From Balanoglossus misakiensis (taxonomy: Eukaryota > Animalia > Hemichordata): a stretch of 64,000 nucleotides of DNA. The notes below the pieces were generated by a model. It had not been told where the DNA came from, did not search any database, and was given only the letters and a program-made list of their open reading frames with translations. The stretch lies in contig CM082591.2 in NCBI GenBank assembly GCA_040954595.2, positions 5,301,009-5,365,008 of the forward strand, given 5' to 3'. The translations under genes and the position numbers were made by a program. Below, in pieces: positions 23,535 through 59,883 of this stretch. Within the stretch, counting starts at the first letter, position 1; each line of letters begins with the position of its first letter.

Positions 23535-26500
23535 ATGGCGACGCTGTGCGCGGGAGGGATTTTGACAGGATTTTTCGCGCTATTTCTCTGTGTCTGCGTT
23601 CACGGCATTGAAGGTGAGTCCCAATGTTGTGTAGTGAGCTATTAATATAAAGTTCATTCAAAGATTCGGGTCGTTCACCGTATTAGGCTAAGTACCTTCG
23701 CGTGTCATCTGCCGTAGTTAGCGACTTGATATCTATGATCTCTTGTAATTGTTTGCGAATATTCTACAAACAATCACAGGAGCAACTGACCAGCACCCCA
23801 AGCACATTCGGGCTTTCGTTTTAATATCTAACAACACCTTACTAAACAGGGCACAGAGAGTTCGCCCCTCAAGACGCTACTCAGGAAATCAAAAATATAT
23901 CATCATCTGTACTCGTCCGAAATTCCGTGTCTGTAAATTTTATTCAGTATTGAAAATGTTATTTTAATATGCAGTCATTGGTAATACAAGTAACGTATTG
24001 ACATGTCCCACGCACACAAAAAACCTAGATATGTTATGAGCGCGGGGTTTTGAAAAAAATGGAAGTGAATTTATGGATTTAAGTTTCGTGTCAGTTCCCT
24101 TAATTAGCTTGTGAGGCCCGTGATATCATATTTGTGATTGCGGATTTCCTGATCAAGCTATATCTTCCACCAGAGAACTATATTAATGGAAATATCTTTC
24201 TATTAACTTTATTTCTGTGTCAAAAAAAATATTTCAGTACTGGGGAAAATTCTTGAAAATAGCGTAATTCTCGCCCCCGCCGTCGTTTTAACAGAACAGT
24301 TTGTGTATTGTCGGCAAAACAGTGACTCAAATTACGAGCATTTATTTCCTCAAAAGGCAAAACTATTTTTGGCTGTACTTTCGCATCTGCAGATAGCAAA
24401 AACATTGAACCACTCAAGATTACATAACTGTGTGGCGATGAAATATTTCAATTCAACCCTCTGATAACTCGGTCTGGTGTACAGTAAATTAAACTCTTTC
24501 TTTGTCGTGCCAGACTGAAAAATCTGCCGCCGTGGTTCCCACTAGAAAAGAACAACAACAACATCATGATTAATGGCGACAGGCAACCATGCAGCCACTG
24601 TATAGTTTACATGTAACGCTTTAGGTGTTAAGGTTGTGACCTGGCGCCACCATGCTGCTGATGAACAATGACACCATGGGGTTCGAAACAAACCAGTCAA
24701 AACTGAAATCGATGAGATTTTTTCAAACACTGCATGTGACAGATGGCCCCCATGACTTTTAACATTTTAGAGTGACAGAGTCGCCCTGTCTAGCCTTTCT
24801 GTGATATCAAGAATGCATGGTGTACAAAATGGTGTGCATTACTTCAGTGTCACAAATCTACCCATGTTTCTGTATGTAAGTGGTAGTTTTGGTCGTGTCC
24901 TCTCAGTACATGAAAAAGTGTCAACAATATAATTTTTTGACAAGTGATGATTAAGGCCCTGTATGAAGGAAATTGAAAATGGGTGGGCGAACATAGCAGA
25001 AAACTCCGCTCGGGAAAACCCCGACTGGTCTTTCTGCACGACAACAAAGATTCACTGTCTGGTAGCTCTTCAAACGTGGCGACCTAAATTTAGAAGTGAA
25101 CTAGTGTGTGTTTTTCATCTTTGTCCCGTTTGGGTTTTATAGTTAAGGGCTTGTATGTCTTAAATTAATGTAACTACACCCTGGCGAGACATTGCTGTTG
25201 AGTAAAATGACACCGGGTTAATCTTGCCCAGTGAAAGAACCTGAATTCATATGGAGACATACTTGAAATTATGTAACAATTTCAATGTACATGTATTTGG
25301 GGTTTTTTTTTCACAGAACGACTCCGACTTGTCGATGGCATATATCCATTTGAAGGACGAGTTGAAGTGTATATAAATGAAACTGTTGCGGAGTGGTTAC
25401 CAGTGTGTTGGTCTGGGTGGCATTTTTCTGATGCTGACTTTGTTTGTAATCAACTGGGTTAGTATCTAGTATCCAGTCTTTGTAGACTTAAAGGGTCATT
25501 AGCTGTAACTTTTGACTATTTTTTATTACTTGTGTTCTGTGTACTAACACCAGTTTCCTATCCTTACCCGCACATAATGCTCAAGTGTCCAGTATTCTGA
25601 TTGTCAACGTAGCCTACACATGTGAAATGATCATTGTTATTGTCGAAAATTGAATTCAAGTCCGGACTAGAATACAAACTTTCAACAACAACAATGCAGA
25701 TTGTACTCATATAGGGGATGTTAATGAACAAAATACTGGGCATTTCATCATGGTTCAGGGATTCCAACCAGAAACTGTAGTTGATACATAGAACAAACAA
25801 AATAAGAAAATGACCAAAAGATACAGCTAATGGATCTTTAAGTATAGTCATCCAGAATGGCATCTGTGCATGTACCTGTTTAAAGCATATGCCAATTAAT
25901 GAGAATATTTGAAAATCAAGAATTGTTTGCGGAAGAGTGAATACACAAAATATATTATCCGCAGGACACGATATGAAATTATTTGTGTACTCATTACCAG
26001 AATCAGGAAATTCGATTTCACAGGTTATGAAGGTGCTATGCGGTCCCGGCGAATGTCTGGTGCTTTAGCGAGGGATTCCCGAAGAGCGGTGGCGTGGTTT
26101 GATTGTGTTGATGGATCTACGACTCTTGACGACTGCACGTACAGCATCATAGCCTCTAAAGATTGCAACGACACCGCTATCATAAGATGTAATTGTAAGT
26201 CTCCTCGTGATTATATTATTGTATTATTTTGATTGTTAGAGAAAACGACATGAACAATCTTAGTGCACCTTTACTGTCCGACAATACATCCAGTTTATTG
26301 CAAACGCCATCCACTTTGTTTTGGGGTCAAGTGTGTGTCTACATAATTGCATGTGTTAGAATTTTTTTGGCATGGCTATTTCTGTAGACATAAGACATTT
26401 GTCTATGCACGGAACTGTTGATAAAGAAGGATCAGCCGTGCATCGCATATGCCTTGTAAAGTTTATGTGATGTGATTAATATAATGCGTAATCATCACGT

Positions 26501-29500
26501 TTGATTGATAGATATCGGATATGCAGGCTGCTATCGGTACAATGAAGTTGAACCAGGATGGAATTCAACAGACATGTTCACCAATTCAAGAATGACGATA
26601 CAGTTGTGTCTTGCGTATTGTCGATCACGTGATATGGACTATGCAGGATTGAAGAACAAAGTAGAATGTTACTGTGGGCAAACGAGCCACGCCGGTTGGC
26701 CGGCACAAAACAGCAAGTGTGGTGGTAAATGTCAAGGAGACAACAGACAAGCATGTGGAGGAGGGCAATTCGTATCCATATACCCAAGTAAGCGACAAAC
26801 TTCAGTTGGTAAAATCAATTGGGAAGCGGGAACATGTTCATTTATTACATTTTGCGCTCTTCCAAAATGTTGAATTAATTATTTGTTAAGCAAAGGGGTT
26901 AATTTTGATGAAAACGAAAGTTTGTATGTCTGTACTTTTAAAACGTATGTTGGTTTGTCTGTACTTACCAATAATGCCTTAAACATAACCGAGTTCTTAG
27001 TAGAACCAACCAACAAATAATTCACAAATGTAAATCTCCACCTCCCAAAACAACAAACAAACAAACCTGAAACACATAGAGAGTACGAGTTTACTGCTGT
27101 TCAATGTTATAATCTAAACATGAATAGCATAGCAATGTTGAATGATCATAGCAATTTCGCTCGAGAATTTGTGACATCTTCCGTTGTCAGGCTCGTGTCC
27201 AAAAAGCAGGATTAGTAATGTTACTCTGGCAAACTAATTCTGTTATTCCAGCAACAATTGGAGCGTGTGGGGGCACTGTCGATGGATCGGGAGTCATATA
27301 TTCCCCTGGCTTCCCAGGAGGTTACTCAGAAAACCAGACGTGCACGTGGAGAATAGCATTACCCCGAGAAAACACCACCAGGCTGAACAGAATATTCTGG
27401 ACTATGTCGACCATAACCGGACGCAATGACTCACTCAGGGTTACCGAAGAGATGGATGGCATCACTTACGAGATCGGCTCCTTTGGTCCTGAATCGAACC
27501 TACCGAGAGACTTACATTCTTGCTCCAACGAAGTTGTGTTCACATTTTCTTCCGGAAGCATACATGCTTCCAGCGATGGAATGTTTGCTTTCCAAATAGA
27601 AGGTATTGTAACCTAAAATTCTGGAGGTTCAGATTCTCTAATGGTTGTTGGAACTTGGTCGTCAATTATAACCCTGACAATATGATTGCATTCAGTCTGT
27701 TTTATATTTGTCATAGAATTGTTGTTGCTACTTCAACGTCCCCCAAATTGTTGTTGCTACTTCAACGTCCCCCAAAATGGTTATATGGTACAGCAATAGT
27801 AATTAGTGAATGTGCGAACTTCAATTATACAAGAGGTTCGGTAAATAACAACCTTATCAAAATATGCTCTTTTCAGGAGTGACCAAGGGTTGTCAACTTC
27901 CACGGTCCATCCCAAATGGTAATTTCCATATTATGGGTAACTGTCCACAAGACTATTCCCTGAATGTTAGTTGTAACGAGGGTTTTACAACAACGGAGTC
28001 GGGACCAGTCGTTAGCTGTGGCGATGACCAACAGTGGCGTGGTAATATTCCAGTTTGTATTGGTAAGCACCGATTTGAATTTTTTTCCATGAAAAAAAAA
28101 CAATGGGAAATTAGCGGAACTGATGGGTATGATGGTGGTGATGGCAATTAGATAAAAGGTATAAAGCGGTTAATTTCCATTGGCATTAATAAATTACCTT
28201 ACTTGCAATCACTGTACACAGAAATTACTTGTGGAAATCCTGGAAACGTATCTGACGCAAACCAGGAAGGGGACACATATACTTACCAAAACACAGTAAA
28301 ATATTCATGCCACGATGGGTACTACATTGTCGGGAATGACACCATTGCTTGCATGAGAGATGGAACATGGACTGAAAAACCCACCTGTATTTTGGCAGGT
28401 ATGTAAACAAAATGTGCCTTGATTTAGCAGTCAATCTGCCTGAGTTGTGTTTGATTTTCCCTTCTTCATCTCATATTTCTATGTCTAATTAATTTTTATC
28501 GTGTCATTGTTATTGAATAAATAATGTATGATATAATGTTATACACAGATCCTGTAGCTAACCAAGTTTTTGGTACTCCTGCGGGTGAGTGTGACATTGA
28601 TTTATTCTAAATGTGTATATATGCAGTGACATAAACATAAGATCTTTCTACTATATTGTAATGGCAGTATTCGAATTTGACTCTGGTCTTTCACGGATTC
28701 CCATTTTAGTGAGGTTTCACACTCAAATTATTCTCGTGAGAAACACGCGAGAAACATTCATAACCTTTTTAAAGCAAGTTGGATTAAACCAAGAGCCATA
28801 TTGCAGTTAGTGCAGCACTATTTTATCAGGAATGGGATATACGATCAATTACATGTTTTGTTTCCCCAGGTCCTATTACAGGCGCACTTATTGGAGTATT
28901 TGTCCTGATATCTTTGTGCATAGTAGCATTCCTCTTGTACAGAAGGCAAGTTTCTCAATTTGTATCTTTTTTCCAATTGGTGAATATGTATTTGATCTTG
29001 CGTCATCATTGACGACTGTGTTCCTTGGGTATCGGTTTTTAGTCGTCATCTTATGGGTAGTAAGGTTTGTGTGAAACTTTGAAGAATTGAAGATTTATTA
29101 ATTGACTTGTACATACAGGACAACTTAATAGACCACCAAATGAAACTAAAATAACCAAAATAATGTCTGTCAGAAGCTAGCGATGTTGTCCCTTTCAAAG
29201 AAATTCAGACCTTCGATTTAATTGTTCCACAGGAAGTGCCATCAAAAACCAACCAGACGCGATACACTGTCGCTGATAAGGACAAGCAAAGAAACAGAGA
29301 TCTCCAACACAACGTGTCTTGATAACCCAACTAATGACTACGCAAACAGTAAAGATACGGTACTTGAGATAGATGACGTACAATGCTTTGATGAAGAACT
29401 GTCAAAGAAAGCCGATGTGGACGATGATGTGGAGTTTGGACAACTTGGAGGAGGAAATGTTAAGAAAACCTTGGCTGACAGCAGTGTAGATGTTATGTCA

Positions 29501-31819
29501 GAAAGAAGGCCAGGCAAGGAAACTAAACAACATGGTATCCCTCCTCCACAAGCAATGGCCGACAAGACAAAGTTTAAAGAACAACACCATGATATAACAT
29601 ATGAAGAGGCTGAAATTGGTCAACAAGTTCAACTTGATGGAACAACGGAAGCATCTCAATATGATAGGTCAAGCAGAAACGGTTCGGCCAGAAGCAACTC
29701 TTCGAAAACGTCTTTCAAAAAAGCTAGCAGAAGCTTGTTTTTGAAGGTCAAGGGTGTATTCGTCGGCAGACATGAGCGCATCGAAGGAGACGTGAGCAAT
29801 CTCACGAAGGGCAAAGATGAAATCGAGAGTACCCAGAATGAGGATGAGGATGTGTATTCAGAAATAAACGACAAAGAAGGATCTCCTGATGGGAAGACTG
29901 CATATGAGCAGCACGTAGATGAAAGTCCCAGGGATAACCTGAAATTCATAAAAAAGATTGGACATCTTGTGTTGCCAACGGAGGAACGTGCTAAGCTATC
30001 AAATGGTGCCATTCAAGAGCCATCTGTCGATCAGAAAACAGAGAAAGAGACTGCAGGTGCGGCTACAGGGAACGTTAGCGTAGAGATGGAACAAGCCAAC
30101 AGGGACTGTCAAATTGAAATGACAGAAAATATATTGTACGATTTTGGTACTGATCCAATAATTGACGAGGAAAACGTTTACGCAAGTGTTGCAGATGACG
30201 AATTTGCTTCCGTAGACAATGTTCTGTACGAATCTAGTGAACAGGACGCATCTGTGGAGAAGGGTCGTGCTGTTACAGACACCATTGGCGAACCCTGTCA
30301 GAATGCATCGCCATGTTCATCACAGGACAAAGAAATCACACCAAATTCTGGACACACTGGCAGCTTTGTGAAGAAGCGTGAACACCACAGAAACACACAG
30401 GAGGGCAACACATCATATGCATCAGCTGATTATGGTGGAAAAGAGGTAGAACAGGAAGAAACACGTCGAGGAACAGATGACAACGACGCTGACAATGTCT
30501 ATTCAGAGATAGACACCAATGGCAACGAGGGGTTTGTGGACAACATCCTTTATGATGTCAAACCGCACGTGCCAAATCAGTCTGCAGGAAGCAAAGTTAA
30601 TGATCGCAAACAGATCGAGGGGAAAGTCACCGGAAACCCAACGTCTTGTTCTAGTGACCCAACGGGTGACGGTGTTGTTACTGACAGGCGAAGAGACAGA
30701 CCAATGCATGATCACGACACGTTTTTAAGAAAGTGTGATAGTGAGAATGGGGGGAGTAAACAGCCTGATTCAGGTACATTTGAAATGGTCGACAATGTGT
30801 TATACGAATCAGTTGACCAAGATCTCACTGACAATACACACCAACCCAGAGGTATTGATACTAATGTGGCGGAAGGTATGGGGCGTAAGAATACAGATGA
30901 TGCAGAAGAAGTCGTGTATGAGCTGGCAACAAGCAACCCACTGGCTAATAGGAGAGAAACAGAACAGAGTGAAACCCAAGGGCAAATGCAAAGCCCCGGC
31001 CAGCAGTGCACTAGTTTGACAGAAGGTATGGAGTGTAAGAAGACAGATGGTGCAGACTTAGTTGAGTATGAGCTGGCAACAAGCATCCCAGTGGCGAATA
31101 GGGCGGAAACTGAACAGAGTACATCCCAAGGGCAACTGCTAAGCCCTAGTCTGAAATTCCTGGAAATTGAACCCAACCCTGGTAGCAAAATTGTGCCTGT
31201 TTACCCAGAAATTACCACTACTGAAGTGGCGGCAACCAGTGGCGTGGAAGAAGCCGGCGACGAGGGGATGGTTGACAATATCCTCTACGATTCAATGGAA
31301 AACATGGTAAAAGATGTCTATGATGATGGCATGACTCTTGGCAATAGTGATCCTTTGACAGAAGGGGACACAGGACAATCAAACAACATGCACGACAATA
31401 GTCACGACGGAGACGGTGTCTTCAGGAATGAAAACAGAGAGCAAATTGCCAAACAATCTGGCGTTGATGATAAGAGAAGAGATATGTCCTTACCTGCAGC
31501 AGACATGGTTGACAATGTTATCTATGAGTCAATAGACAACGACCTAGACGATGGCGTTCAGGATGATTCGCCTAATACTAAACCGGTTTCCATGAACGTT
31601 ACTCACAGACACGACCCCTCGAAGGAAACTACTGCAGACCAAGCCAAAGGCAAAATGGGTTACCTGGCAAAGTTTGGACAGAAGGTGATGCCGGATGAAC
31701 TTTCTCCTAGGTCCATTACGTCTCCCAAAGAGCTAGACGAACCGTCTAATGTCGATGGAGCCAGAGTTAGTAACAGGGAAGGTCATTTTGGATACGGACC
31801 GGAAGTAACTGACGTGTAG
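23535..31819 (+). CDS. SRCR-WSC-CUB-2xCCP-TM receptor 1 with ~860 aa tyrosine-motif-rich tail (spliced, 10 exons)
   Basis: Exons: signal 23535-23613 (MATLCAGGILTGFFALFLCVCVHG); SRCR 25317-25457 (RLVDG..EGRVEV..W.PVC..VCNQLG) and 26024-26194; WSC 26512-26787; CUB 27252-27602; CCP 27877-28062 and 28222-28398; linker 28549-28584; TM 28870-28945 (GC donor); tail 29233-31819. Phases are consistent. Confidence 0.85.
25488..25841. mobile_element. Non-autonomous DNA transposon (Kolobok-like MITE) in an intron
   Basis: TTAA flanks; imperfect terminal inverted repeats ttaaagggtcattagctgtaacttttgac... / ...ccaaaagatacagctaatggatctttaa. Confidence 0.7.
27717..27775. repeat. 29 bp tandem duplication in an intron
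   Basis: aattgttgttgctacttcaacgtccccca present twice. Confidence 0.85.
30871..31147 (+). repeat. 150 bp-period coding repeat in the receptor 1 tail
   Basis: EGMGRKNTDDAEEVVYELATSNPLANRRETEQS versus EGMECKKTDGADLVEYELATSIPVANRAETEQS. Confidence 0.85.
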
Positions 31820-38600: not shown

Positions 38601-38980
38601 AACATGAATTAAAATATTTACCTTCGTCTGACTCATCGCTGTCAGTGTTTTCATCGGACTCAATCTCCGAGTCGAGCACACCTGTATGTGTACATTCAAA
38701 GATAAGTCTCCTCACTTGGAGAAATTGGATCCTACAAACATTTACCAACAAACTAGCTAAAGCTTAGCACATGCGAATTAAGATCAACTGTCAGTAGTTT
38801 TTATCGTAATTGTAAAACGCTGATATTTTGACATACACTTTGAGTGAGGGTGCAGACTATTGCTTTCTAGTAGAGATTAAACAACGCGGACTTACCACCA
38901 ACACCATCACCACCAGCGGAATCATCTGCCCAAACTGTCAGAATGGTGCATGCCGTCATTAAAACAACCAATAGTTTCAT
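32656..38980 (-). CDS. Arylsulfatase B/I/J-like secreted sulfatase (17 exons) with non-canonical active-site residues
   Basis: Exons: 38896-38980 ([11 protein letters not shown]..), 38622-38681 (acidic), 38322-38366 ([13 protein letters not shown]), 38116-38227 ([13 protein letters not shown]), 37801-37852 ([11 protein letters not shown]), 37196-37299 ([10 protein letters not shown]), 36915-37036 ([16 protein letters not shown]), 36550-36623, 35940-36041 ([15 protein letters not shown]), 35516-35582, 35094-35191 ([16 protein letters not shown]), 34642-34775 ([16 protein letters not shown]), 34235-34293 ([11 protein letters not shown]), 33946-34066 ([10 protein letters not shown]), 33679-33749 (GDYKLI), 33113-33205 (LFNI), 32656-32825 ([18 protein letters not shown]); GT-AG introns. 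Confidence 0.9.
35290..35500. mobile_element. Small inverted-repeat element (MITE family X), copy 1
   Basis: ttgtacttccggtagtatgg ... ccatactaccggaagtacgaggttgtaaggtca; related copies at ~48470 and ~56797. Confidence 0.65.
37071..37160. repeat. Degenerate (CT)n microsatellite
   Basis: Pyrimidine CT-rich tract in an arylsulfatase intron. Confidence 0.8.
37495..37731. mobile_element. MITE with ~45 bp TIRs and 9 bp target-site duplication
   Basis: TIR tagcctggtctccatacccagtgtgtt..gatagactcacacaca and its reverse complement; TSD tgtgcaggg at 37486-37494 and 37732-37740. Confidence 0.9.
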
Positions 38981-39431
38981 CGTGGATGGCAAGTATGAAA
39001 TTTTGACTAACGTAGCGGGAAGGTATGGTACCTGTGACACCGGAAACAAGTTGATATCAAATAACATACAAATTAACAACCAACACGCACGCGCGCGCGC
39101 ACATTCGTTAAGAACATTGTTCCCATTGCTCAAGCTTTACATATCCTACGGGTCATTTTTTAATCAGAATTCGAATTCGGACCTACCTTATTCAAGAAAG
39201 CCAAGGTACAGCAGCTCTCAGCCAGATCACCATTCGCCAAATGACTAGGCAGCTCAGATGTATCAGCCTCCTTCTGGGCTTGGGTGCTTATACAAAATGC
39301 GATTGGGGCCTGGACTGTTTTATAACCACACGCAATGTTTATACATGTAGTACCTCTCTATAAGTATATAACCTCTTTACTGATAATTGCAAGGCTAGGG
39401 CACGGTAACCCCAATTGTTTGGTGATTTGCA

Positions 39432-44117: not shown

Positions 44118-47100
44118 TTATTCGTCACTTGTTTGCACTGCGGTAGTTTGCATCTCTTTTTCACCGACGTCAACATCGTACTTCTTCTTCGATTTCCTGA
44201 AGTAAAAGCAAGACCGGAAAGTGGTATAACACATTTGATTGATAATAAGATGACATAACATATATGAACACATTCTGACATGCCTGTCAATATATATTTT
44301 TTATATTGATTGATTGATAATTTATGTATGATAAATAATTAATACCAATCAATTAATTAACTAATTAATAAAGTTATTCTCGTTTATTAATTAATGAATT
44401 AATTAATTCATCCAATTAACGAGAATTAATTATTTTACTAATTCTCGTGTTAAATTAAAGAAATGGAAACCTAAAAAGTTTGGATGGATAATTTTATGTT
44501 TTGAGAAAATTACTTTTCTTACCTTTTGCAGATGATAATCACTAATATTATAATAAGGAGAAGTGCCGCCAGTATAACCAATATTATCGCAACTATTACA
44601 CCTAAAGTGAGATATATGAGGAATAATCACAATTTATTATGTCGACAACATTAATTCTGAAACAAACTAGTAGATTATGTGCCCAGGCGAAGCCTTTACC
44701 AAAATATCATCAAAAATGTTTAATTCACACAGATCTGGAAATACACAAGCCTCGCACAAGTTACTTGTCAGAATATATAAATCAAGCAGAAATCAATTTA
44801 AGTAAGGTATTTTAGTACCTACCTGCTCCAAGCCGGGATTTGGATGATCCGACTTCTTGCGTTGGTTTGACGTCATCTGAAACAAAATAAAAATCAAGTG
44901 TCACAAGTGTCATATATGTGCATGTTTCATTACGAGAAGATCAATGTTGTGATTGTCTGGGGTATTCTCGTGTTTAACCTGTATGATTTGTTTTGAATAT
45001 TATAAACAGCTATGAAATACCTAACTTATATATCATCAGTCGTTTTATAATGACCCTCAACAAGCGAGCCCTTCTATTTGTGTTTGCCTTCCTATATAAT
45101 GAATGTTCATGATGCCAACCCATCATCAATCTTATCGATTGCAAAGAAATAACGGAGAAGTTGCCATACATAGAAATATGATATTGAACCCCACACTGAC
45201 CAATCATATTATCAGTAAGGCGTTTGATTTCCTATGAACACAGATCATGAGTAATTGCACGTGTGTTATGTATATAATCATGTCCATTGCACCTACCAAT
45301 CTTAGAACAAGCAGGCTTTTCCTTCCAGACTTCACCCTCCTCACAAATGACCACGACACTTTCCTTATTCTGGTAGCCCTCTAGGCAGTAGTAATAGACG
45401 AGTGTGTCGTTATCAAGAGACATGTTGCCAATGTGTTCTGCATTTTCGACCACGCCTGGGTTGCCACACCCTAGATGACACATGGTCAAAACAGAAATAA
45501 AAATACTTAGACAAACTCTGAATTTGAAGATTGCTTAAGGAAATGCGTAAATCAGGGTTAGATGTACTGCGTTGTTGCCCACAAGCACACTCCCTTCTCT
45601 GTTTTGAAACTGCCGCGTATCAAACTACTAAAATCTAAAGGGCGACGCATCGTGTTTAATACAGAAACTTTCAAACATGTGCTGTGTATGTTGCATGCAG
45701 TAAACAGAGAATTTTGCACACTCGCGGGTCTTACCAATCTTAAGACATTCGGGTTTCGTTGTCCATTCTCCGTTCTCCTGACAAAGTATGGTGTTGTTCT
45801 CGTTGCTATAGTAACCTTCTTGGCAGCTGTAGACAACAGTGCCATTATATGTGTGGTCGTCGCCATCTTTGTCCGCATTCTCAACAGTGCCCGGATCGCC
45901 ACACCCTATGATCAGATATATATAAATACATGTCAATGGAAATGTGATATGTATTGTATGCCTTGGGGAACCAATATTCGGGGATATTTCTTATAATGTT
46001 GATATTTGTGAATATTTGTCATTAGCTTTAGTTTAACATAGAAACCGACATACCGTGCTGTTATGTTAAATAGATGGTGTGCTTGCACATGGTCAACGAA
46101 TCACAAACTTTTAACTATAAACACTCTGTATTACCTATTTGTCTGCATGGAGATTTGTCTGTCCAAGTGGCATCTTCTGTGCACGTTATATCGCCACCAC
46201 CGGCATATCCGTCTTGACACGTGTACTTTACCTTGCTGGAGTAAGTGAACGACGTACCCTCTCTGTCTGCATTCTGCACGCTGCCAGGATCGCCACAGTC
46301 AACAGCTGTTGGTTGGTGAATTATCATTAGGTAAATACATGATCTCACTTGCGTTGAAATTGTTCAACAACGTGGTTATAAAAAGTGTGTCTCTCCCTCC
46401 CCCAAAAACAGATTTGAAGAACGGCGAGGGAGGTGAATTGATTGTAATATCACAAGTGAAACTCGCGCGTACATCCATATGCAAATGATAAACTGAGTCA
46501 GTGCTACAGTGTAACCGAAATTACAGTTTCTCAGGAAAGCTTGGCGCCAACTCTTTCATCCAGCTGTTACATTGTAGTCATTCAGTGTCCCTTGGTGTCA
46601 CGTACGCAACATAGTTTCGAAAATATCAGGGTGAGAATCGGTGTCTTTGCCTCTATAGGTAAATGTTATTTTGATACATGAAAGAAAATTCACGGTTTCG
46701 CCAATGTTCAATGAATGCAAGTATGCTTAACCCTCAAAACACGCTTGTTGGCGACTGTTTCTATAATATTCAGTCTTACCTGTACAGTTTGGGAATGTGT
46801 CGCTCCAGGCTCCGTTCTCTTGACACGTCACAGTGTTGTGGGTGGTAGTTAGATTGTAGCCAGGGTGACAGCTTATTGAAATGTTGTCGCCGGCGTTAAA
46901 TGGACAGGTGTGAGACATGTCAAAATTCTTTGTCGTACCCACGTCCGCCGGAAACGTGCAATCAGATTGCAAATCTGTATCAGAAAGGAGATTACAATGT
47001 GGGAACGAACTTGTGTTATGAAAACTCAACGACAGATAAGAGACACAAAAACGGGCAAACCAATTACCAATAAATAAATAAATAAATGTAATATTATTTA

Positions 47101-49542
47101 ATTTAAAGTAGCAATCGCATTCACCTGTGACCTCAATAACAAATTTCCTCCCAGTCTCCTGGCTGCTCCTAGAGAACATGAAAACTTCACTGGAGCACGA
47201 CGTAACAACTGCGCCATCAACCGACAACTCAAACAGTCCACCGTGAAAGTTTTCAAATATCCGCAGCTGTGAGTCGAGGGTTTCGGCCGGCTCCATGAGA
47301 ATGAAATTCAGCTTAACCGAGTTCGTGTCCGCCAAATGGATGTTCCAGAAACAGGCGGTGTCCGCGGAAATGTTGCCAGGGTAACCGGGAGAGTAGATGG
47401 TTGTTGGTTCAGTGATGCTACCGCCGCAGGCACCGATATTTGCTGAAATGGATAAACGAGAAATCAGCAGAAATCGATCGGTGATTTTTAAAAACAAGAC
47501 AATAAGTACCCTAGCTGTATTCCTCTTTTGCAGGAAAATAATCATCTCATGCTGACATTTATCACAGAATATTGAAAGATTTGGAGAAATGTTTTTCTAG
47601 AAATCTGCCTCTCCCCCACCGACCTACAACATCAACCCTTTTACCCCAGTTCCCTCTTTAGAGGTCCAACTTTACCATAGAAAACGATGAATTTGGACCA
47701 AACCATGGAGGTTAAAGGGTTAAACTAAATGTCATACTTGAATAAACTGACACGTGTTTCTCTCCACCGCACACGCTGCTGCTGTCGCCGTCGCATCTTG
47801 TACTACACTTATCCCAATATTCAGTATCCCCCCAGTAAGACGCCTCATCGCTCCCACAATAGCAGTACGTTGCATTCCTCAGTCCAGCGTAGGGTTTCCC
47901 CACGCCCCGGCAGTAGCTTAGACATCTCTGGATGGTCATGTCGTCCAGTTCGAACTCATCACCCGGCAGGACTACGCCATCTTCGTCACTAGCAAAGCAA
48001 CCTTTGTAACCATCGACTTATTATTGCAAAGAAAAAGAAAAACAGAATATTGATCATAACTTGTCTTTATCTAAAACAGGATAATTTTAACACAATAAAT
48101 TTAACGATTTCAGGAATCCGTCCGAATGCAGTATAAAGGATGACAACTATAGTACAGATGCAAATTGCAGACATAAAAATACTTGTTCCTTCTGGCCTTG
48201 CTGCATTATGTTACAGTAAAATTCAATGTCTAAGTGCAGATAATTCAGAGTAATCTGATGTTCTAGCTGTATGTGAAATCACTGAGCCATACATAGTATA
48301 TCAGCGGGAGACGTGTTTTGGACTATAGCAAGGCCAGTGTTCACATTCTCATGTTTGAAACTTAAACCATGATTGTCGACATAAGGTTAACGCTGGTGTC
48401 AGTGGAGTCAGTCCAGACTCCAGTTAAGTTATGCGATTATTACTTGTCTCTCCTAACAGAATAGGTCACTTCCGTGACCTCTATGTTAGCTTACATCTTG
48501 TACTTCCGTTGGCATGGGGTTGTCAAAATTCATCAGTTTCGGACAGGAAACGTATCAAAGTTTCTTGACAAAGAGCCACCTTTGTAATTTAGTATATACT
48601 ATAATTTGTTGACTAGAGGTTTTATAGAGGTTTTTGTAAACCGGAAGTACGAGGTTGTAAGGTCATGTACGGGTCATAAAATGGCTTCTTATATGAAACG
48701 TATCATTACTTACAATTACACTTGACTACGGCTGAGTTGGGGCAGTCTGGGTGCATTTTGTAATAACAGTCGGCAATGGACGATTCATTGCCAATACACG
48801 CCACGTCTATCACCCGTTGACGATCGTCATCGACGAGGAAACGATGCGCACTGCCGGAATACATTGCTCCGGGTCGCCCTGGGCAACAAAAGTGAACAAA
48901 TCCAGATTGCTAAACACGCATATTAAAGGAAGTAATAACGTTCCAGTTTGAAAAAAACACCTGGTAAAATTGAGTAAAAAAGCTGAAGCATGCTGTGGTC
49001 AAACACTCCAGGGACTTGTTTATTCAGACCTCCGTAGTCTCCGTTACCGAGACCATTGAACGATTTGTAAAACAAAATGGCCGCTGTCAGGATTTCGGAT
49101 CTGGATAACCGAGAAAAAGACCTACCCAGTTCTTGACAAACAACGTTTCCATCAATCCAGTCAGATTTCCAGTAGCAAACAGGAGTCCACCCGGTTTCAT
49201 TTCGATACATTTGCACTTTTCCTTCATATCTGTCGTTTCCATACACCAGCCGAACATTTTCACCAGCGTCTGTTGGAGGAAGGAGAAATAATCATTCTTT
49301 TATTCTCGCGTATCAATAAAACAACGACCTAGAAATACATCCACACATATCTGTTTACAACAAATCATGAAAGCTATAGGTTACACTATGTAATGTCCAC
49401 TGGCTGTGTGGTCAAATATTCAATCACTGACCAACTATCAACTGTAAATGTGATTCTTACCTGTCTTCTTATCCATAACCATGATGAAAAACAGCGCCAA
49501 AAGAGTCACCAGTTTTATCCCCTTAACACACACAATCCCCAT
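44118..49542 (-). CDS. SRCR-WSC-CUB-4xCCP-TM receptor 3 with a very short tail (spliced)
   Basis: Signal 49461-49542; SRCR 49126-49269 and ~48713-48877; WSC 47738-48016; CUB 47125-47442; CCP ~46780-46974, ~46134-46305, ~45735-45905, ~45297-45469; linker 44823-44876; TM 44523-44601 (VIVAIILVILAALLLIIILVIIIC); tail 44118-44196 KSKKKYDVDVGEKEMQTTAVQTSDE*. Confidence 0.83.
48470..48680. mobile_element. MITE family X, copy 2
   Basis: tgacc..ttacatcttgtacttccg ... ccggaagtacgaggttgtaaggtcatgtacgggtca. Confidence 0.65.
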
Positions 49543-50924: not shown

Positions 50925-51305
50925 GCTGGAGAACAAAACTTAGATGTGCAAATAAAATCTCGCGCAATTGAGCAAAGGAGCAATTAAAGAAAATATATAT
51001 AACAGAAAATGTTCTGGTTCTTCCATTTCTATTTGATCAGTTTCTCATCTTCGTTCATGTACTTAACTTAAGTAACGACATCATACAAAAAAGTGTTCTC
51101 CAGATATGTTACTAATGTCCTGGTGAACAAAACTTGGAAGTCGAAATAAAATCATGTGCAATTAAGAAAAGGAGGAATTTAAGAAAATATATATAACAGA
51201 AAATGATATGATGCCTCTATTTCTATCTGACGAGTTTCTCAGCCTCGAACATGTAACGATATCATCAAAAACAACTTATTCTCTAGGTATGTTACTATAG
51301 TCCAG
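50925..51305. repeat. Diverged ~195 bp tandem duplication
   Basis: ctgg(a/t)gaacaaaactt...aagaaaatatatataacagaaaatg...tatgttacta occurs twice, starting at ~50925 and ~51120. Confidence 0.8.
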
Positions 51306-52988: not shown

Positions 52989-55900
52989 ATGAACCATCAA
53001 CGCCTCATACTTATATCTCTAATTACAGCATTGCTTTGCAGTGTCATTTATTCAGGTAAGACTCTGTGACTTATATTTGGAAAGGGTTTTCACATACATG
53101 TATGGACGGGTTGTATTAATCAAAACACACCATGATTCTATTGTGAAAATATCGCATTGGGCGTGTATTACTTGCACAGCACATAACTGCAGGACATCAA
53201 TTAACTTCTGATTCTTATTTCCTTTGTATATTCCAATCTCTCTGTGTGTTTTGTATGCCTGTCTGTCTGTCTATCTGTCTTTACAAGACACTGCAAGGGT
53301 CAGACTCGCTAATGGGCCATTGCCCTATCAGGGCGAGGTAGAGGTGTACAAGGCAAGCAGTCGCCAATGGGTGCCAGTATTGTACCCAGGTGTTGGGAAC
53401 TACTCAAAATGGAGCTTCACCAACTCAGAAGTAGTTTGCGAGGAATTGGGTAGGGAGAATTGCAACATTAATCCATTTCGCTTTATTGCAACAATGCTGT
53501 GTTCAAACTTCATTGAACACAAACGACTTGTTCAATTTCACGCCCCATACTCATTATGCAGGTAATAGTCCATACGTTGTAATAATGACGACAACAATTT
53601 TATGTTTATGTTAGAAATTAACTGTTATCTCTTACTGTTAAATATGTTGACCTTCTTTTACTTGACATTTGATATCCATTGCACAATCAACACCTACAGG
53701 ACACCAAGGAGCTATGTGGAAAGGATCAAAACAAATCTCATGTTTCGGTGAGACCTGCCTCTTCAATGTTGCTTGCAATGGCAACGAGGAATCCCTTCTT
53801 CAATGTTCATATCACACTGGTACTTGTCCGAGAGAAACAGCTGTCGCTGTCGTAAGATGTAACTGTAAGTCTTTTCACGACCATCATATTAAAATATGTG
53901 TATGTATGTATGTATGTATGTATGTATGTATGTATGTATGTATGTATGTATGTATGTATGTATGTATGTATGTATGTATGTATGTATGTATGTATGTATG
54001 TATGTATGTATGTATGTATGTATGTATGTATGTATGTATGTATGTATGTATGTATGTATGTATGTATGTATGTATGTATGTATGTATGTATGTATGTATG
54101 TATGTATGTATGTATGTATGTATGTATGTATGTATGTATGTATGTATGTATGTATGTATGTATGTATGTATGTATGTATGTATGTATGTATGTATGTATG
54201 TATGTATGTATGTATGTATGTATGTATGTATGTATGTATGTATGTATGTATGTATGTATGTATGTATGTATGTATGTATGTATGTATGTATGTATGTATG
54301 TATGTATGTATGTATGTATGTATGTATGTATGTATGTATGTATGTATGTATGTATGTATGTATGTATGTATGTATGTATGTATGTATGTATGTATGTATG
54401 TATGTATGTATGTATGTATGTATGTATGTATGTATGTATGTATGTATGTATGTATGTATGTATGTATGTATGTATGTATGTATGTATGTATGTATGTATG
54501 TATGTATGTATGTATGTATGTATGTATGTATGTATGTATGTATGTATGTATGTATGTATGTATGTATGTATGTATGTATGTATGTATGTATGTATGTATG
54601 TATGTATGTATGTATGTATGTATGTATGTATGTATGTATGTATGTATGTATGTATGTATGTATGTATGTATGTATGTATGTATGTATGTATGTATGTATG
54701 TATGTATGTATGTATGTATGTATGTATGTATGTATGTATGTATGTATGTATGTATGTATGTATGTATGTATGTATGTATGTATGTATGTATGTATGTATG
54801 TATGTATGTATGTATGTATGTATGTATGTATGTATGTATGTATGTATGTATGTATGTATGTATGTATGTATGTATGTATGTATGTATGTATGTATGTATG
54901 TATGTATGTATGTATGTATGTATGTATGTATGTATGTATGTATGTATGTATGTATGTATGTATGTATGTATGTATGTATGTATGTATGTATGTATGTATG
55001 TATGTATGTATGTATGTATGTATGTATGTATGTATGTATGTATGTATGTATGTATGTATGTATGTATGTATGTATGTATGTATGTATGTATGTATGTATG
55101 TATGTATGTATGTATGTATGTATGTATGTATGTATGTATGTATGTATGTATGTATGTATGTATGTATGTATGTATGTATGTATGTATGTATGTATGTATG
55201 TATGTATGTATGTATGTATGTATGTATGTATGTATGTATGTATGTATGTATGTATGTATGTATGTATGTATGTATGTATGTATGTATGTATGTATGTATG
55301 TATGTATGTATGTATGTATGTATGTATGTATGTATGTATGTATGTATGTATGTATGTATGTATGTATGTATGTATGTATGTATGTATGTATGTATGTATG
55401 TATGTATGTATGTATGTATGTATGTATGTATGTATGTATGTATGTATGTATGTATGTATGTATGTATGTATGTATGTATGTATGTATGTATGTATGTATG
55501 TATGTATGTATGTATGTATGTATGTATGTATGTATGTATGTATGTATGTATGTATGTATGTATGTATGTATGTATGTATGTATGTATGTATGTATGTATG
55601 TATGTATGTATGTATGTATGTATGTATGTATGTATGTATGTATGTATGTATGTATGTATGTATGTACCTCACGTTTTCAGACAGTTGCACAATGGCTGAA
55701 ACCATTTATATACCAATTTTCTTTTCTTTCCAAAATATAGTCGATGACTATCAAGGATGTTTCCAATTTGGCGAAAGCGGGGAAGGCCCCCTTCACATCC
55801 GGGAAAACATGACAATCCAAATGTGTCTTGAACATTGTCGCAATACGTCCATCTTAAATTCCACGTACGCTGGTTTACTTGGAGGTAACATGTGTCACTG

Positions 55901-58252
55901 TTTGCCAGAAAGTCAATACAGATCCCTTGTTAAGGTATCAAACGAGTTTTGCATTGAACCGTGCAGTGGTGACGTCCGTGGTTGGACAAACTGTGGAGGT
56001 AAAGATCACATTGGAGTATATAAATGTAAGTCAAGTGTTCATGACATATTCCGTTTTTCTTAAGTAGGCCTACTTAAAATTTGATACATTTCTAAGCATG
56101 TTTTGCCCAAGCTATATGAATGACTTTTATCATCACATAAAGAGGCTCTGATTACAGTATACATGCATGAATCCCATTACTCCAGTTTTCTTAATTATAT
56201 GATAAATGGTTATTGAAAAGTATAATAGATTCATAGAAATACTTACAAATTATTATTGCAGCTAGCATGGGGTCATGTGGAGGTAACATTCAGGGTCCAG
56301 GAACGCTGTATTCGCCAGGATTTCCGGGTTCTTACCCTGATAACATGAACTGCGTCTGGGAAATAAGTTCTCCACCTCGCACAGTGCTCACGATGGAATT
56401 CATCGTCTTTGTTGTAACTGAAGGAGTTCACAATGTGACAGTCTATGAAATGTACCAAGGGAATTACAGGGAATTACTGATGCAAGATTCGTTGGTGCTC
56501 CAGTCATGTTCAAACCGTGTCAGTCTACACTTCAATTCGAAAATCAGCCATTTTGGTAGCAGCTACATAGCGAGATTTGCTCTCACGTTCAAAGGTACGT
56601 GTCAACAGTTTGCCCACGAAATTATCTCATTAAGATATTATGTAAACATACATTGCTTTTATATTTGTCTTGATAAAGAGCATTCTTCTTTTATTTATAG
56701 TATAAAATCATCTTAAACATTCTTCAGGCCCACGCCAGTTCCTTCTAAGAAAACATAAATCATATACTACATACATGAGTACTGTGTACTTTCCAAATGA
56801 CCCCTAAATGACCTGACATCCTCGTACTTCCGTTGGTAAGAATCCATTAGTTGACTTAAACCTCTACAAAAACTGCACAGTTGCAGCTATTCTCAAAAAA
56901 ATATGTACTAAACTACCTATATGGCTACATTTCAAACAATATTTCAAACGTTGTTTATCTAAAACTGAATTATGGCAACCGACTACCAACGGAAGTACGA
57001 GGACGTAAGGTCATGTTGGGGTCATGAAAGTAACCTATTATGTTTCTTCTAAGGTATACCATCGTGTCTCTTACCATTGGGTATTGAAAATGAGGCGTTG
57101 ATCTTCAATGAATCTTGTCCATACTTCCATGGTGATGTCATCACTTTCACCTGCCGGCCTGGACACAACATGACCGATTCATATAATAGTATTGAATGTC
57201 AAGAAGACGGACATTGGAATGACTCCGTCCCTCAGTGCTCAGGTAAAAAATAAACATGTTCTGATTCATTTTAAAACAATACAATTACAATTTATTTACA
57301 TGATTGAATGGGCATGTCTATACTTTAAATTAACATTTGGCGGCACACTTTTTTGCGTGGATACCTTGCGAAAAACTGTTGCTGGCTAGATTCCTACTTT
57401 CCCTGGTAAAGTCCCTAACCCTAATCGCGAAACATACGTTTTGATTCCAAAAGGAGTAAATTTGTTGTAACTATTTCTTGTGCGTTTTATGCACAGCCGA
57501 ATTGTTACCTGCACCTCCAGTTATAAACTCGGAAGCAGATATAACGACATCCTTTGGAAATACAATTGGTAAGATTTATTTATGATTAAACACCCTTAGA
57601 TATATATAAGAATCATGTAGTAATATGCTTGTGTGTAAGCTTAATGTGTTCTGTTCTGATAATGACAACATGAAGACTTAGATTAAAACCCAGTCGTCCA
57701 GCGTCTGAAACTACTGATCCAAATAATGCTTTAAAATTTGGCATGCAAGGTTCTTAGGGGTACCTTAATATACATTTGTTAAAACTGTGTGCTTGTCTTT
57801 ACACATTTTTAATTTTGTGGCAGGTTTTGCCGGTATAAAAAATCCTCTCTGGAACTGCTTTTCTGTTACTTTGATATTTGGTACGCCATTTAATTCTGAA
57901 GCAGTTATCTTGTTTATAATGCGAATGTTTAATGCATACATGTGTGCTACAAATCACAGTTGCTTGAAGTCAGCACAGATGGGAGGTTAGGTCTGGGAAA
58001 ACGCATGGTGTAACAATCTTGTAACAATCAACTCGTTCACTGACAGTTCATGTGTTTTTGCAGGTCCAATCATTGTTGTAGTAACATTGATTCTGATCAT
58101 TGCGGCATGGCTCTTGGCGGTGTACTTAGGTACATCAGGGTGAGTTTGAGTTGACATTTAGCAAAGCAAATTTATTTTTGGCATCACGATGCAAACATCA
58201 TACAATTAACAGATGATGATGATGGTGATGGTGGTGGTGGTGGTGATGCTCG

Positions 58253-58342
<90 letters not shown>

Positions 58343-58778
58343 GTACTCACGTTTATCTTGCAGCCCAAGGGGGCACCCTACGGGCAACAGACACCCAATC
58401 AGAAAGGAGGACACACTACAATCGAATGAACCCACCAGCCGCCTGGGGCGTGGTCAGACTCAATTGGCAGATGCCAGAGCAGATTACGGTCACGTGGTGA
58501 AATATTCTCAGGAACGCAGCTGTGCTTCTGCCGAAGACCACGTCACCCAGTGGGTGTGGCAGTGCGCAGACTCCGCCAGTGCTTCGGAAAAGGACATTGA
58601 CAGCATTGAGAATTATGAGGACTCGGTTGTAGATGAAACTCTTAATATTGGCACCGAATCGAATGATTCAGTGTTTAATTTTCAACATTTTGACACCTGC
58701 GATGTTGTTGTGGCCATCGCACACGAGGTTGCTGTTAGCCCTTCGGATGGTGTTCACTCGTGCGCAGATGTGGAATAG
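52989..58778 (+). CDS. SRCR-WSC-CUB-1xCCP-TM receptor 4 (spliced)
   Basis: Signal 52989-53055 (MNHQRLILISLITALLCSVIYS); SRCR 53288-53449 and 53700-53864; WSC 55741-56025; CUB 56262-56594; CCP 57054-57242; linker 57497-57568; TM 58064-58139; tail 58364-58778; phases consistent. Confidence 0.85.
53899..55666. repeat. Perfect (TATG)n microsatellite, ~1.77 kb, intronic
   Basis: Uninterrupted tatg repeat between the second SRCR exon and the WSC exon. Confidence 0.99.
56797..57026. mobile_element. MITE family X, copy 3
   Basis: atgacccc..atgacctgacatcctcgtacttccgttggta ... taccaacggaagtacgaggacgtaaggtcatgttggggtcat. Confidence 0.72.
58212..58340. repeat. (GAT)n/(GGT)n microsatellite, intronic
   Basis: Trinucleotide run just upstream of the acceptor at 58363. 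Confidence 0.97.
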
Positions 58779-59395: not shown

Positions 59396-59883
59396 ATAAA
59401 AAATTGGGCAAAGGAAAACCATAATATAAATGTGCCATTGCACATAAATGAACCCTTAATGCAAGTTTATTCGTAAGATCCGGATAGCATTTTCAGATGT
59501 AAAGACAGAAAGATTTAACCTGGAATTCGAATATGCAATAGTACAAACACAACTGGGTAAGGTCTTGAGCGGATGACATCAATAGAACAATGCATTAGCG
59601 AGCATATGACACTTACTTTCGAAGTAGGCCCAGCAATGCGGATACTTCCAAATACACCACCTGCACATCAACGTACGGCTTAAATCACTATAATCTGCTT
59701 AACCAATCACTACGTCTCCCTTTGCAGCTGTTTGCATATTGGGTGGAGTATGCTAATTATTATAATGCAGGTGTCCTAAAAGGACGATTTTGTTGTGGGT
59801 TATGTTTCTTTGCAAATCTAGAGACTCTATTTCGTAAATGTGACTGTATTCCTCTCGGAAAGCATAAGTAACAGAAGGGCTCA

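What the first reader, a model, noticed from the sequence alone, without database searches (positions are those of the whole stretch)
23535..58778. Family of SRCR-WSC-CUB-(CCP)n receptors with divergent signalling tails (paired-receptor-like)
Seen: four paralogues share exon order and phase (signal, split SRCR, WSC, CUB, CCPs, linker, TM, tail) but have 2, 2, 4 and 1 CCP exons and highly diverged ectodomains. Tails are ~860 aa (many Tyr motifs), ~270 aa (ITAM plus ITIM), ~26 aa and ~140 aa. Established: SRCR, WSC (carbohydrate binding), CUB and CCP are pattern-recognition or complement-type modules; similar ectodomains with opposing tails typify paired receptors (KIR, Siglec, Hydractinia Alr). 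I do not recognise this architecture as a named family. Inference: an uncharacterised activating/inhibitory/decoy receptor set.
Basis: partly seen in the sequence, partly recalled or inferred. Interest (0 to 1): 0.78.

Follow-up and report, generated by a model that had tools for sequence, protein, structure and literature searches.

The report
Kremen-like receptors with unequal signalling tails
Three open-frame copies and one front-truncated copy of a predicted cell-surface receptor gene, probably from an acorn worm, join four known binding modules in an order not found in our searches, and only two carry a long tail of repeated tyrosine motifs, so they likely form a recognition set of graded signalling strength rather than classic activating/inhibitory pairs.

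Summary
Partly confirmed. Three genes (g1, g3, g4) give stop-free models: signal-SRCR (two exons)-WSC-CUB-CCP(2, 4, 1)-TM-tail, all phase-1 modules. The fourth (g2) has no SRCR, no WSC and only half a CUB. Tail exons encode 861, 268, 25 and 137 aa. The conserved tail signal is not ITAM/ITIM. It is a repeated [DE]N-x-hydrophobic-Y motif (6 in g1, 3 in g2), often preceded by a Y-S-E-I-like site, and kept in two Ptychodera flava proteins. The single ITAM is in truncated g2 and is not conserved. WSC and CUB sit in Kremen1's register, but the kringle and all six DKK-contact residues of the WSC are missing. Ectodomains are only 18-61% identical and no TM is charged, so classic paired-receptor criteria fail. 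Likely kinase-less recognition receptors docking PTB/SH2 adaptors (as CD200R does). An immune role is suggested by adjacent LRR-Ig-TM genes with ITAM-like tails and diversifying concave faces. No RNA support; ligand unknown. New variant of a known kind, interest 0.5.

The parts
23535..23613 (+). g1 exon 1, signal peptide
   Evidence: ATG, hydrophobic stretch, GT donor phase 1
25317..25457 (+). g1 SRCR first half
   Evidence: PF00530 E 1.4e-7
26024..26194 (+). g1 SRCR second half
   Evidence: PF00530 E 0.069, four Cys
26512..26787 (+). g1 WSC exon
   Evidence: PF01822 E 8.3e-16
27252..27602 (+). g1 CUB exon
   Evidence: PF00431 E 9.8e-11
27877..28062 (+). g1 CCP1
   Evidence: PF00084 E 9.7e-8
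28222..28398 (+). g1 CCP2
   Evidence: PF00084 E 9e-13
28549..28584 (+). g1 linker exon (predicted)
   Evidence: AG/GT, phase 1-1
28870..28945 (+). g1 transmembrane exon, followed by a GC donor
   Evidence: uncharged hydrophobic stretch; GCAAGT donor gives phase 2
29233..31819 (+). g1 tail exon, 861 aa, acidic, 21 Tyr, 6 [DE]N-x-hydrophobic-Y motifs, ends T-D-V
   Evidence: open frame; relative P0047 in P. flava, E 9.6e-16
39335..39404 (+). g2 candidate signal exon (uncertain; another signal-like frame starts at 39241 without a clear donor)
   Evidence: ATG, hydrophobic stretch, GTAACC donor phase 1; not found by the signal profile
39426..39612 (+). g2 remnant: C-terminal half of a CUB exon with intact donor, preceded by an in-frame stop and no acceptor
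   Evidence: family CUB profile E 1.5e-5; alignment; DNA profile E 3.8e-5
39697..39897 (+). g2 CCP1
   Evidence: PF00084 E 1.3e-9
40315..40485 (+). g2 CCP2
   Evidence: PF00084 E 2.1e-6
40857..40901 (+). g2 linker exon (predicted)
   Evidence: AG/GT, phase 1-1
41079..41160 (+). g2 transmembrane exon
   Evidence: uncharged hydrophobic stretch
41439..42246 (+). g2 tail exon, 268 aa, 14 Tyr, one ITAM-like match, 3 [DE]N-x-hydrophobic-Y motifs
   Evidence: aligns with the P0048 tail
49461..49542 (-). g3 exon 1, signal peptide
49126..49269 (-). g3 SRCR first half
   Evidence: PF00530 E 3e-5
48714..48878 (-). g3 SRCR second half
   Evidence: PF00530 E 0.01
47738..48016 (-). g3 WSC exon
   Evidence: PF01822 E 1.3e-16; best PDB hit Kremen1 E 2.9e-9
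47125..47442 (-). g3 CUB exon
   Evidence: PF00431 E 1.2e-6
46780..46974 (-). g3 CCP1
   Evidence: PF00084 E 1e-10
46135..46305 (-). g3 CCP2
   Evidence: PF00084 E 8.5e-9
45735..45905 (-). g3 CCP3
   Evidence: PF00084 E 1.4e-11
45297..45470 (-). g3 CCP4
   Evidence: PF00084 E 3.5e-4
44823..44876 (-). g3 linker exon (predicted)
44523..44601 (-). g3 transmembrane exon
   Evidence: uncharged hydrophobic stretch
44118..44196 (-). g3 tail exon, 25 aa, basic start, one Tyr, no NxxY/ITAM/ITIM
52989..53055 (+). g4 exon 1, signal peptide
53288..53449 (+). g4 SRCR first half
   Evidence: PF00530 E 0.0064
53700..53864 (+). g4 SRCR second half
   Evidence: PF00530 E 4.9e-4
55741..56025 (+). g4 WSC exon
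   Evidence: PF01822 E 2.2e-9
56262..56594 (+). g4 CUB exon
   Evidence: PF00431 E 2.3e-9
57054..57242 (+). g4 CCP1 (only CCP)
   Evidence: PF00084 E 1.7e-10
57497..57568 (+). g4 linker exon (predicted)
58064..58139 (+). g4 transmembrane exon, no basic stop-transfer cluster directly after it
58364..58778 (+). g4 tail exon (predicted), 137 aa, 3 Tyr, no NxxY/ITAM/ITIM
   Evidence: open frame, GC 0.516 against 0.302 in introns; no relative found

Best explanation
These are predicted kinase-less type I membrane receptors of a probable acorn worm, whose SRCR-WSC-CUB head likely binds a ligand and whose tails likely set signal strength, with the long tails of g1 and g2 predicted to be phosphorylated and to dock PTB- and SH2-domain adaptors while g3 and g4 would signal little. 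Shown: exon modules, open frames, domain identities, WSC-CUB spacing equal to Kremen1's, tail motifs and their conservation in P. flava, truncation of g2. Inferred: (1) SRCR takes the kringle's place on a compact WSC-CUB unit; 1-4 CCP modules act as a stalk of variable height. (2) The canonical acidic ligand/Ca2+ residues of the SRCR, WSC and CUB are mostly replaced, so each paralogue probably has its own ligand, more likely a surface protein or glycan than DKK. (3) Ligand clustering lets a Src-type kinase phosphorylate the acidic tail; repeated hydrophobic-[DE]-N-x-hydrophobic-Y sites recruit Dok/Shc/IRS-type PTB adaptors, and the Y-[SAEN]-[ESD]-[IV] site 13-20 residues upstream recruits SH2 proteins; a C-terminal class I PDZ-like end would anchor g1 to a scaffold. 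(4) g3 and g4 act as low-signalling competitors or anchors. (5) The role is probably immune or self/non-self recognition. g2 is probably a recent deletion or a misassembly (about 0.7) rather than a working headless adaptor (about 0.3).
For: Stop-free models with uniform phases; Pfam hits. NxxY: 7 observed vs 1.31 expected in g1, 6 vs 0.83 in g2, 8 vs 1.47 in P0047 (2000 shuffles each, p <= 0.001), 0 in g3 and g4. In the six-frame window 9 of 10 [DE]N-x-x-Y-type matches and 5 of 5 Y-S-E-I-type matches lie in the g1/g2 tail exons. The two-tyrosine cassette occurs 2x in g1, 2x in g2, 2x in P0047 and 1x in P0048, and aligns across three proteins although the g1-P0047 tails are only about 30% identical. 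Proline-less NxxY can bind Dok2, and CD200R inhibits through NxxY-Dok2 rather than an ITIM (PMC8007030, passages). Kremen1 is the best PDB match of the WSC (E 2.4e-13), and WSC end to CUB start is 6 residues in both g3 and Kremen1. Neighbouring LRR-Ig-TM genes end in an ITAM-like motif and change 18-23 of 32 concave-face residues against 26-36 of 228 others, pN 0.31-0.42 vs pS 0.08-0.13. SRCR genes commonly form tandem arrays, and WSC, CUB and Sushi are among the commonest partner domains in sea urchin (PMC10855680, passages).
Against: No transcript, expression, ligand or phosphorylation data. NxxY-type motifs also serve internalisation and activating signalling (PMC8007030), so sign and partner are not fixed. 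The narrow motif patterns were written after seeing the tails, and P0047 was found with the tail as query, so its motif count is not independent. Only two relatives were found, both 5'-incomplete models, so the full architecture is shown in this window only. Neighbourhood to LRR-Ig genes is circumstantial: an arylsulfatase-like gene sits inside the cluster. g1's tail is conserved with a distant relative, which fits a stable conserved function as well as a fast-evolving immune one.
Confidence: 0.5

Rival explanations
1. Classic ITAM/ITIM paired receptors (KIR/Siglec/Alr type): near-identical heads, one member recruiting Syk, another SHP.
For: g2 has a YxxI-x6-YxxL match (p 0.01) and two strict ITIM matches (p 0.024); g1 has two ITIM matches; g2 and g3 ectodomains are sisters (bootstrap 70 and 82 for CCP1 and CCP2) with opposite tails. 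ITIM/hemITAM families exist in Botryllus and Hydractinia (PMC12065747, passages).
Against: Domain identity 18-61%; no DNA similarity between the four genes at blastn E 1e-4, so no homogenisation; no charged TM residue in 4 of 4; the ITAM is not conserved and sits in the truncated copy; ITIM counts in g1 and P0047 are at chance (p 0.19, 0.56).
Confidence: 0.13
2. SEZ6/CSMD-like complement-regulating or endocytic receptors: CUB-CCP modules handle C3-type ligands and the NxxY motifs are sorting signals.
For: The nearest Atlas clusters of P0048 are SEZ6-like (score 0.91 and 0.90). CCP1 matches CR2 and factor H best. NPxY motifs mostly mediate trafficking (PMC8007030). The tail motif of SEZ6/CSMD is recalled, not tested.
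Against: Sorting needs one or two motifs, not six in an 861-aa tail paired with second tyrosines; no proline in the motifs; only 1-2 CCPs in three of four genes; CCP hits to complement proteins are generic.
Confidence: 0.15
3. Kremen-like developmental co-receptors (Wnt/DKK/LRP6 regulation or dependence receptors).
For: WSC-CUB in Kremen1's order and spacing; all eight WSC cysteines kept; the aromatic at F207 is an invariant Tyr (PMC5014086 Results).
Against: No kringle; 0 of 6 DKK-contacting WSC residues (D125, N140, E162, S163, Y165, D201) are identical in any of the three genes, and E162 is K, R or L. CUB is no closer to Kremen than to cubilin, PCPE1, neuropilin or MASP. Multi-copy, with CCP stalks.
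Confidence: 0.1
4. Adhesion or matrix-associated surface proteins without an immune role (neural, gamete or mineral-associated), with the tail as a cytoskeletal scaffold.
For: A 'Scavenger Receptor/WSC/Sushi' protein is listed in the sea star skeletal proteome (PMI_006935; PMC5460417, passages). g1 and P0047 end in PDZ-like motifs. g3's basic-Y-x-V juxtamembrane stretch resembles FERM-binding motifs (recalled).
Against: Does not explain the many tyrosine cassettes, which can coexist with adhesion but point to signalling.
Confidence: 0.12

Closest known systems
Kremen1/2 (kringle-WSC-CUB-TM)
   Same: Adjacent WSC-CUB pair with the same spacing and cysteines; type I membrane protein.
   Different: SRCR instead of kringle, CCP stalk, DKK contacts lost, tails up to 861 aa, multi-copy.
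Echinoderm SRCR-superfamily mosaic proteins (sea urchin SRCR with WSC, CUB, Sushi; Patiria PMI_006935)
   Same: Same domain vocabulary, tandem arrays, exon loss among siblings (PMC10855680, PMC5460417).
   Different: Only domain counts or lists were seen. The exact order SRCR-WSC-CUB-CCPn-TM and the tail cassette were not found; the supplementary architecture tables could not be read.
CD200R family and RET-type PTB docking tails
   Same: Signalling through an N-x-x-Y site binding Dok-type PTB adaptors, with upstream tyrosines and acidic residues (PMC8007030, PMC2150770, passages).
   Different: Unrelated ectodomains; one site there, up to six here; analogy, not homology.
SEZ6/SEZ6L and CSMD
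   Same: CUB plus CCP modules, TM, tyrosine-motif tail; nearest Atlas clusters of P0048.
   Different: No SRCR or WSC in those; alternating CUB/CCP order (recalled).
Botryllus FcoR and Hydractinia Alr
   Same: Invertebrate multigene type I receptors with unequal tyrosine-motif tails (PMC12065747).
   Different: Ig-based ectodomains, canonical ITIM/hemITAM, shown polymorphism; none of this is shown here.
Ptychodera flava XP_070558370.1 (P0047) and XP_070569345.1 (P0048), uncharacterised
   Same: P0047: CCP end-TM-long tail, likely g1 counterpart (36% over 115 aa, E 5.5e-17; tail E 3.7e-18). P0048: partial CUB-CCP-CCP-TM-tail (34% over 214 aa to g1, E 5.6e-35).
   Different: Both models begin inside the ectodomain, so SRCR and WSC are not shown for them.

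Membership tests
Kremen | N-terminal kringle domain | tested here: not met
   SRCR exons precede WSC; no kringle hit in 25 exon scans
Kremen | WSC directly followed by CUB | tested here: met
   3 of 3 complete genes; 6-residue spacing in g3 and Kremen1
Kremen | DKK-contact residues D125, N140, E162, S163, Y165, D201 | tested here: not met
   0 of 6 identical in each gene, read from alignments with numbering from PMC5014086
Kremen | Binds DKK/LRP6 and modulates Wnt | not testable with these tools
   needs binding and reporter assays
Paired receptors (KIR/Siglec type) | Significant ectodomain homology with similar ligands | tested here: inconclusive
   homologous, but 18-61% identity per domain and no DNA-level homogenisation; definition from PMC5701461
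Paired receptors (KIR/Siglec type) | Inhibitory member with conserved ITIM | tested here: inconclusive
   g1 2 matches (p 0.19), not kept at aligned sites in P0047; g2 2 strict matches (p 0.024)
Paired receptors (KIR/Siglec type) | Activating member with own ITAM or a charged TM residue for an adaptor (criterion recalled) | tested here: not met
   no charged TM residue in 4 of 4; no ITAM in the 3 complete genes; one unconserved ITAM in truncated g2
Paired receptors (KIR/Siglec type) | Co-expression and opposite signalling | not testable with these tools
   no RNA run listed
SRCR superfamily, group A | SRCR domain with six cysteines | tested here: met
   6 Cys in g1 and g3; g4 has 7 with the first canonical Cys lost; group definition from PMC10855680
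SRCR superfamily, group A | Acidic C-D-D-x-W ligand/Ca2+ motif (its role is recalled) | tested here: not met
   family reads W-x-P-V-C-W/Y where solved SRCRs read W-G-T-x-C-D-D
SEZ6/CSMD | Alternating CUB and CCP arrays without SRCR or WSC (recalled) | tested here: not met
   one CUB, preceded by SRCR and WSC
SEZ6/CSMD | Complement inhibition | not testable with these tools
   needs assay

The most novel reading that the evidence does not exclude
An invertebrate-deuterostome immune receptor complex in which a Kremen-derived head (kringle swapped for SRCR) was redeployed as a diversified recognition family. It would be tuned by a repeated two-tyrosine SH2-plus-PTB cassette (CD200R/Dok logic, not ITAM/ITIM), with tail-less competitors and a headless g2 adaptor, beside positively selected LRR-Ig-ITAM receptors.
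Probability: 0.25. Interest if true: 0.75.

Novelty: new variant of a known kind. Interest (0 to 1): 0.5.

Why it matters
Hemichordate immune receptors were barely covered in the literature searched (searches returned nothing on them). This locus gives concrete, testable candidates: a non-vertebrate use of the Kremen WSC-CUB unit, a conserved repeated tyrosine cassette that predicts PTB-adaptor signalling, and adjacent LRR-Ig receptors with a diversifying binding face. If immune, it would show how tunable receptor families were built in ambulacrarians from other modules than vertebrate Ig pairs. If not, it is one more exon-shuffled SRCR mosaic of the kind common in sea urchins.

Tried and rejected
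No whole genome is held. No RNA holder was listed for g1, so no reads were laid. WSC profile vs longer proteins: 46 of 524 candidates passed, none with SRCR, CUB or Sushi, named ones fungal; uninformative. g1 tail: 1 of 7187 candidates (P0047). Tail profile vs 1.84 billion representatives: 3 hits, of which P0049 (Owenia) matches only by TM and was dropped. g2-tail/P0048 profile vs 736-2100 aa proteins: 4 generic Sushi proteins of 7991 candidates. Atlas: generic SEZ6/CUB-Sushi clusters for P0048 and single-WSC clusters for the WSC exon; no cluster with the full architecture was listed, which shows neither novelty nor absence. Alignments A4 and A5 were poor and not used for searches (A5 was read only for the tail cassette). 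Our earlier-findings index gave nothing. Ten paper searches found no description of this architecture; the supplement of PMC10855680 with domain tables could not be read and may hold it. The RET motif letters were not in PMC2150770, so that likeness is recalled. A WSC+CUB complex prediction was not run (no verdict). Rejected: g2 head exons hidden in or beyond the arylsulfatase gene (none in six frames); a decayed first half of CUB upstream of the remnant (no protein or DNA match); a longer g3 tail (no tail motifs on the minus strand).
Full report
Observation. I rebuilt the four genes from the sequence. g1 (+, 23535-31819), g3 (-, 49542-44118) and g4 (+, 52989-58778) give stop-free products of 1359, 636 and 587 aa in the order signal, SRCR in two exons, WSC, CUB, CCP x2/x4/x1, linker, TM, tail. 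All ectodomain introns are phase 1 and the TM-tail intron is phase 2. Of 28 introns in these three genes 27 are GT-AG and one (after g1's TM exon) is GC-AG. Exon GC is 0.46-0.48 against 0.30-0.38 in introns. Pfam confirms WSC, CUB and Sushi above cut-off and SRCR in halves. This is far beyond chance, but no RNA run was listed, so splicing is predicted.

g2 is not a complete paralogue. Profiles of each exon class run over all six frames find three SRCRa, three SRCRb, three WSC and three full CUB exons, plus a C-terminal CUB half at 39426-39612. That remnant keeps its donor and 63 open codons but is preceded by an in-frame stop and has no acceptor. About 440 bp upstream an arylsulfatase-like gene starts on the other strand. 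The downstream g2 exons are all intact. An undecayed remnant suggests a recent deletion or an assembly join (inference). A short signal-like exon at 39335-39404 could splice in phase to CCP1 and give a 458-aa headless protein; this is untested.

Relatives and organism. The g1 tail found one protein among 7187 candidates, P0047 = P. flava XP_070558370.1. A profile search of 1.84 billion representatives added P0048 = P. flava XP_070569345.1. P0047 covers a CCP end, TM and a 914-aa tail; P0048 covers partial CUB-CCP-CCP-TM and a 177-aa tail. P. flava is an enteropneust hemichordate. At 30-36% identity the window is probably another acorn worm or relative; this is an inference. The two proteins lie on contigs of different length, so the family probably has more than one locus there. 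Neither model reaches SRCR or WSC, so the full architecture is shown only in this window.

The head. The WSC's best solved match is Kremen1 (E 2.9e-9 single, 2.4e-13 profile), and in g3 the CUB begins at the same distance after the WSC as in Kremen1. Kremen1's kringle, WSC and CUB form one rigid unit, and DKK binds kringle and WSC (PMC5014086; passages and part 1 of Results read). Here SRCR stands where the kringle stands. None of the six DKK-contacting WSC residues is identical in any gene. The acidic residues at the D125 and E162 positions are common in other WSC domains: of 178 WSC hits, the patterns caught 88 (77 D/E) and 116 (104 E). They are replaced in 3 of 3 here. The invariant Tyr at Kremen's F207 may be a general WSC feature. 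The CUB is not specifically Kremen-like and lacks the second cysteine pair seen in cubilin and PCPE1 there. The SRCR is six-cysteine group A in g1 and g3 and lacks the C-D-D motif. So the module works like a Kremen-type head at most; it is not a Kremen. Paralogue identities are 25-46% for SRCR, WSC and CUB and 18-61% for matching CCPs.

The tails. NxxY is strongly enriched in g1 (7 vs 1.31 expected), g2 (6 vs 0.83) and P0047 (8 vs 1.47) and absent from g3 and g4. Most copies read hydrophobic-[DE]-N-x-hydrophobic-Y, and seven times in four proteins a Y-[SAEN]-[ESD]-[IV] site lies 13-20 residues upstream. The narrow patterns are post hoc, and P0047 was found through its tail. ITIM matches in g1 are at chance and lose the +3 residue at the aligned P0047 sites. 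The one ITAM-like match (g2, p 0.01-0.02 uncorrected among 13 patterns x 5 tails) has no counterpart in P0048. No TM has a charged residue. g1 ends T-D-V and P0047 S-I-L (class I PDZ-like, consensus recalled). A K-[FIM/L]-G-[QHK]-x-V motif occurs twice in g1 and three times in P0047 and is unexplained.

Mechanism. Proline-less NxxY can bind Dok2, and CD200R inhibits through NxxY-Dok2-RasGAP, whereas the same motif class also drives activation or internalisation (PMC8007030, passages). RET Y1062 is a PTB site for Dok proteins (PMC2150770, passages). I therefore read g1 as a kinase-less docking receptor. Ligand-driven clustering, Src-type phosphorylation and PTB plus SH2 recruitment are all inferred. 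g3 and g4 would be low-signalling competitors or anchors (confidence 0.5). The sign of the signal cannot be told from sequence.

Context. Five single-exon LRR-Ig-TM genes lie directly upstream. Three end in Y-A-S-L-x9-Y-E-S-L (ITAM-like) and two do not. Among the three, 18-23 of 32 concave-face codons differ in amino acid against 26-36 of 228 others (Fisher p <= 4e-8), with pN 0.31-0.42 against pS 0.08-0.13 (p <= 2e-5). The positions were set by the LRR consensus after I had seen the alignment, and the three pairwise tests are not independent. This fits an immune receptor neighbourhood but says nothing direct about g1-g4.

Known or new. SRCR with WSC, CUB and Sushi is common vocabulary in sea urchin (36, 35 and 38 domains; PMC10855680, passages), and a sea star SRCR/WSC/Sushi protein is listed (PMC5460417, passages). 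Ten full-text searches found no description of this order or of the tail cassette; subscription papers and the unreadable supplement of PMC10855680 may hold one. Other papers were seen as passages only: PMC6078440, PMC3927609, PMC8242945, PMC12065747, PMC5701461. Paired receptors are defined by ectodomain homology, co-expression and opposite signalling (PMC5701461); only the first is partly met. Verdict: a real, lineage-restricted mosaic receptor family, a new variant of SRCR-superfamily receptors, with three complete genes rather than four. Interest 0.5.

Noticed in passing
window 949-2748, 5733-7526, 15263-17182 (-): Three single-exon LRR-Ig-TM genes (597-639 aa) ending in an ITAM-like Y-A-S-L-x9-Y-E-S-L. 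Amino-acid changes concentrate on the LRR concave face (pN 0.31-0.42 vs pS 0.08-0.13), as in variable recognition receptors. Possibly worth a finding of its own.
   Followed up: partly
window 9477-11693, 19131-21347 (-): Two near-identical LRR-Ig-TM genes (738 aa) of a second type with three more LRRs, no ITAM-like motif and low dN/dS, interleaved with the first type.
   Followed up: partly
window 6182-13865 and 15838-23590: Tandem segmental duplication at 93% identity (further copies 1-4138 and 4783-8917). It includes the first 18 codons of g1's signal exon at 13810-13863. Could partly be uncollapsed haplotypes.
   Followed up: partly
window about 32656-38980 (-): Multi-exon arylsulfatase B-like gene (C-T-P-S-R motif split by an intron; family name recalled from motifs, no Pfam hit on the three fragments scanned) between g1 and g2, head-to-head with g2.
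   Followed up: partly
window 59872-61014 (+): 381-codon ORF with a TM-like N-terminus and a glycosyltransferase family 2 hit (E 8.3e-6), directly after g4.
   Followed up: no
window 53899-55666 and 58212-58340: Perfect (TGTA)x442 array in g4's SRCR-WSC intron and (GAT)x43 just before g4's last acceptor; a perfect array this long may be an assembly artefact.
   Followed up: no
window 29954 and 31670 (+); P0047 residues near 308, 581, 823 of its tail: Conserved repeated motif [FY]-x-x-K-[ILFM]-G-[HQK]-x-V-[LM] in the long tails; no known partner recognised.
   Followed up: no
window 30872-31146: 150-bp internal duplication (83%) in the g1 tail exon, each unit with a Y-E-L-A-T site; shows the tail growing by repeat.
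   Followed up: no
window 25483-25846, 61149-61504, 37495-37731; 35417-35507, 48455-48681, 56787-57038: Inverted-repeat elements (MITE-like) and a short dispersed repeat in introns of g1, g3, g4 and the arylsulfatase-like gene.
   Followed up: no
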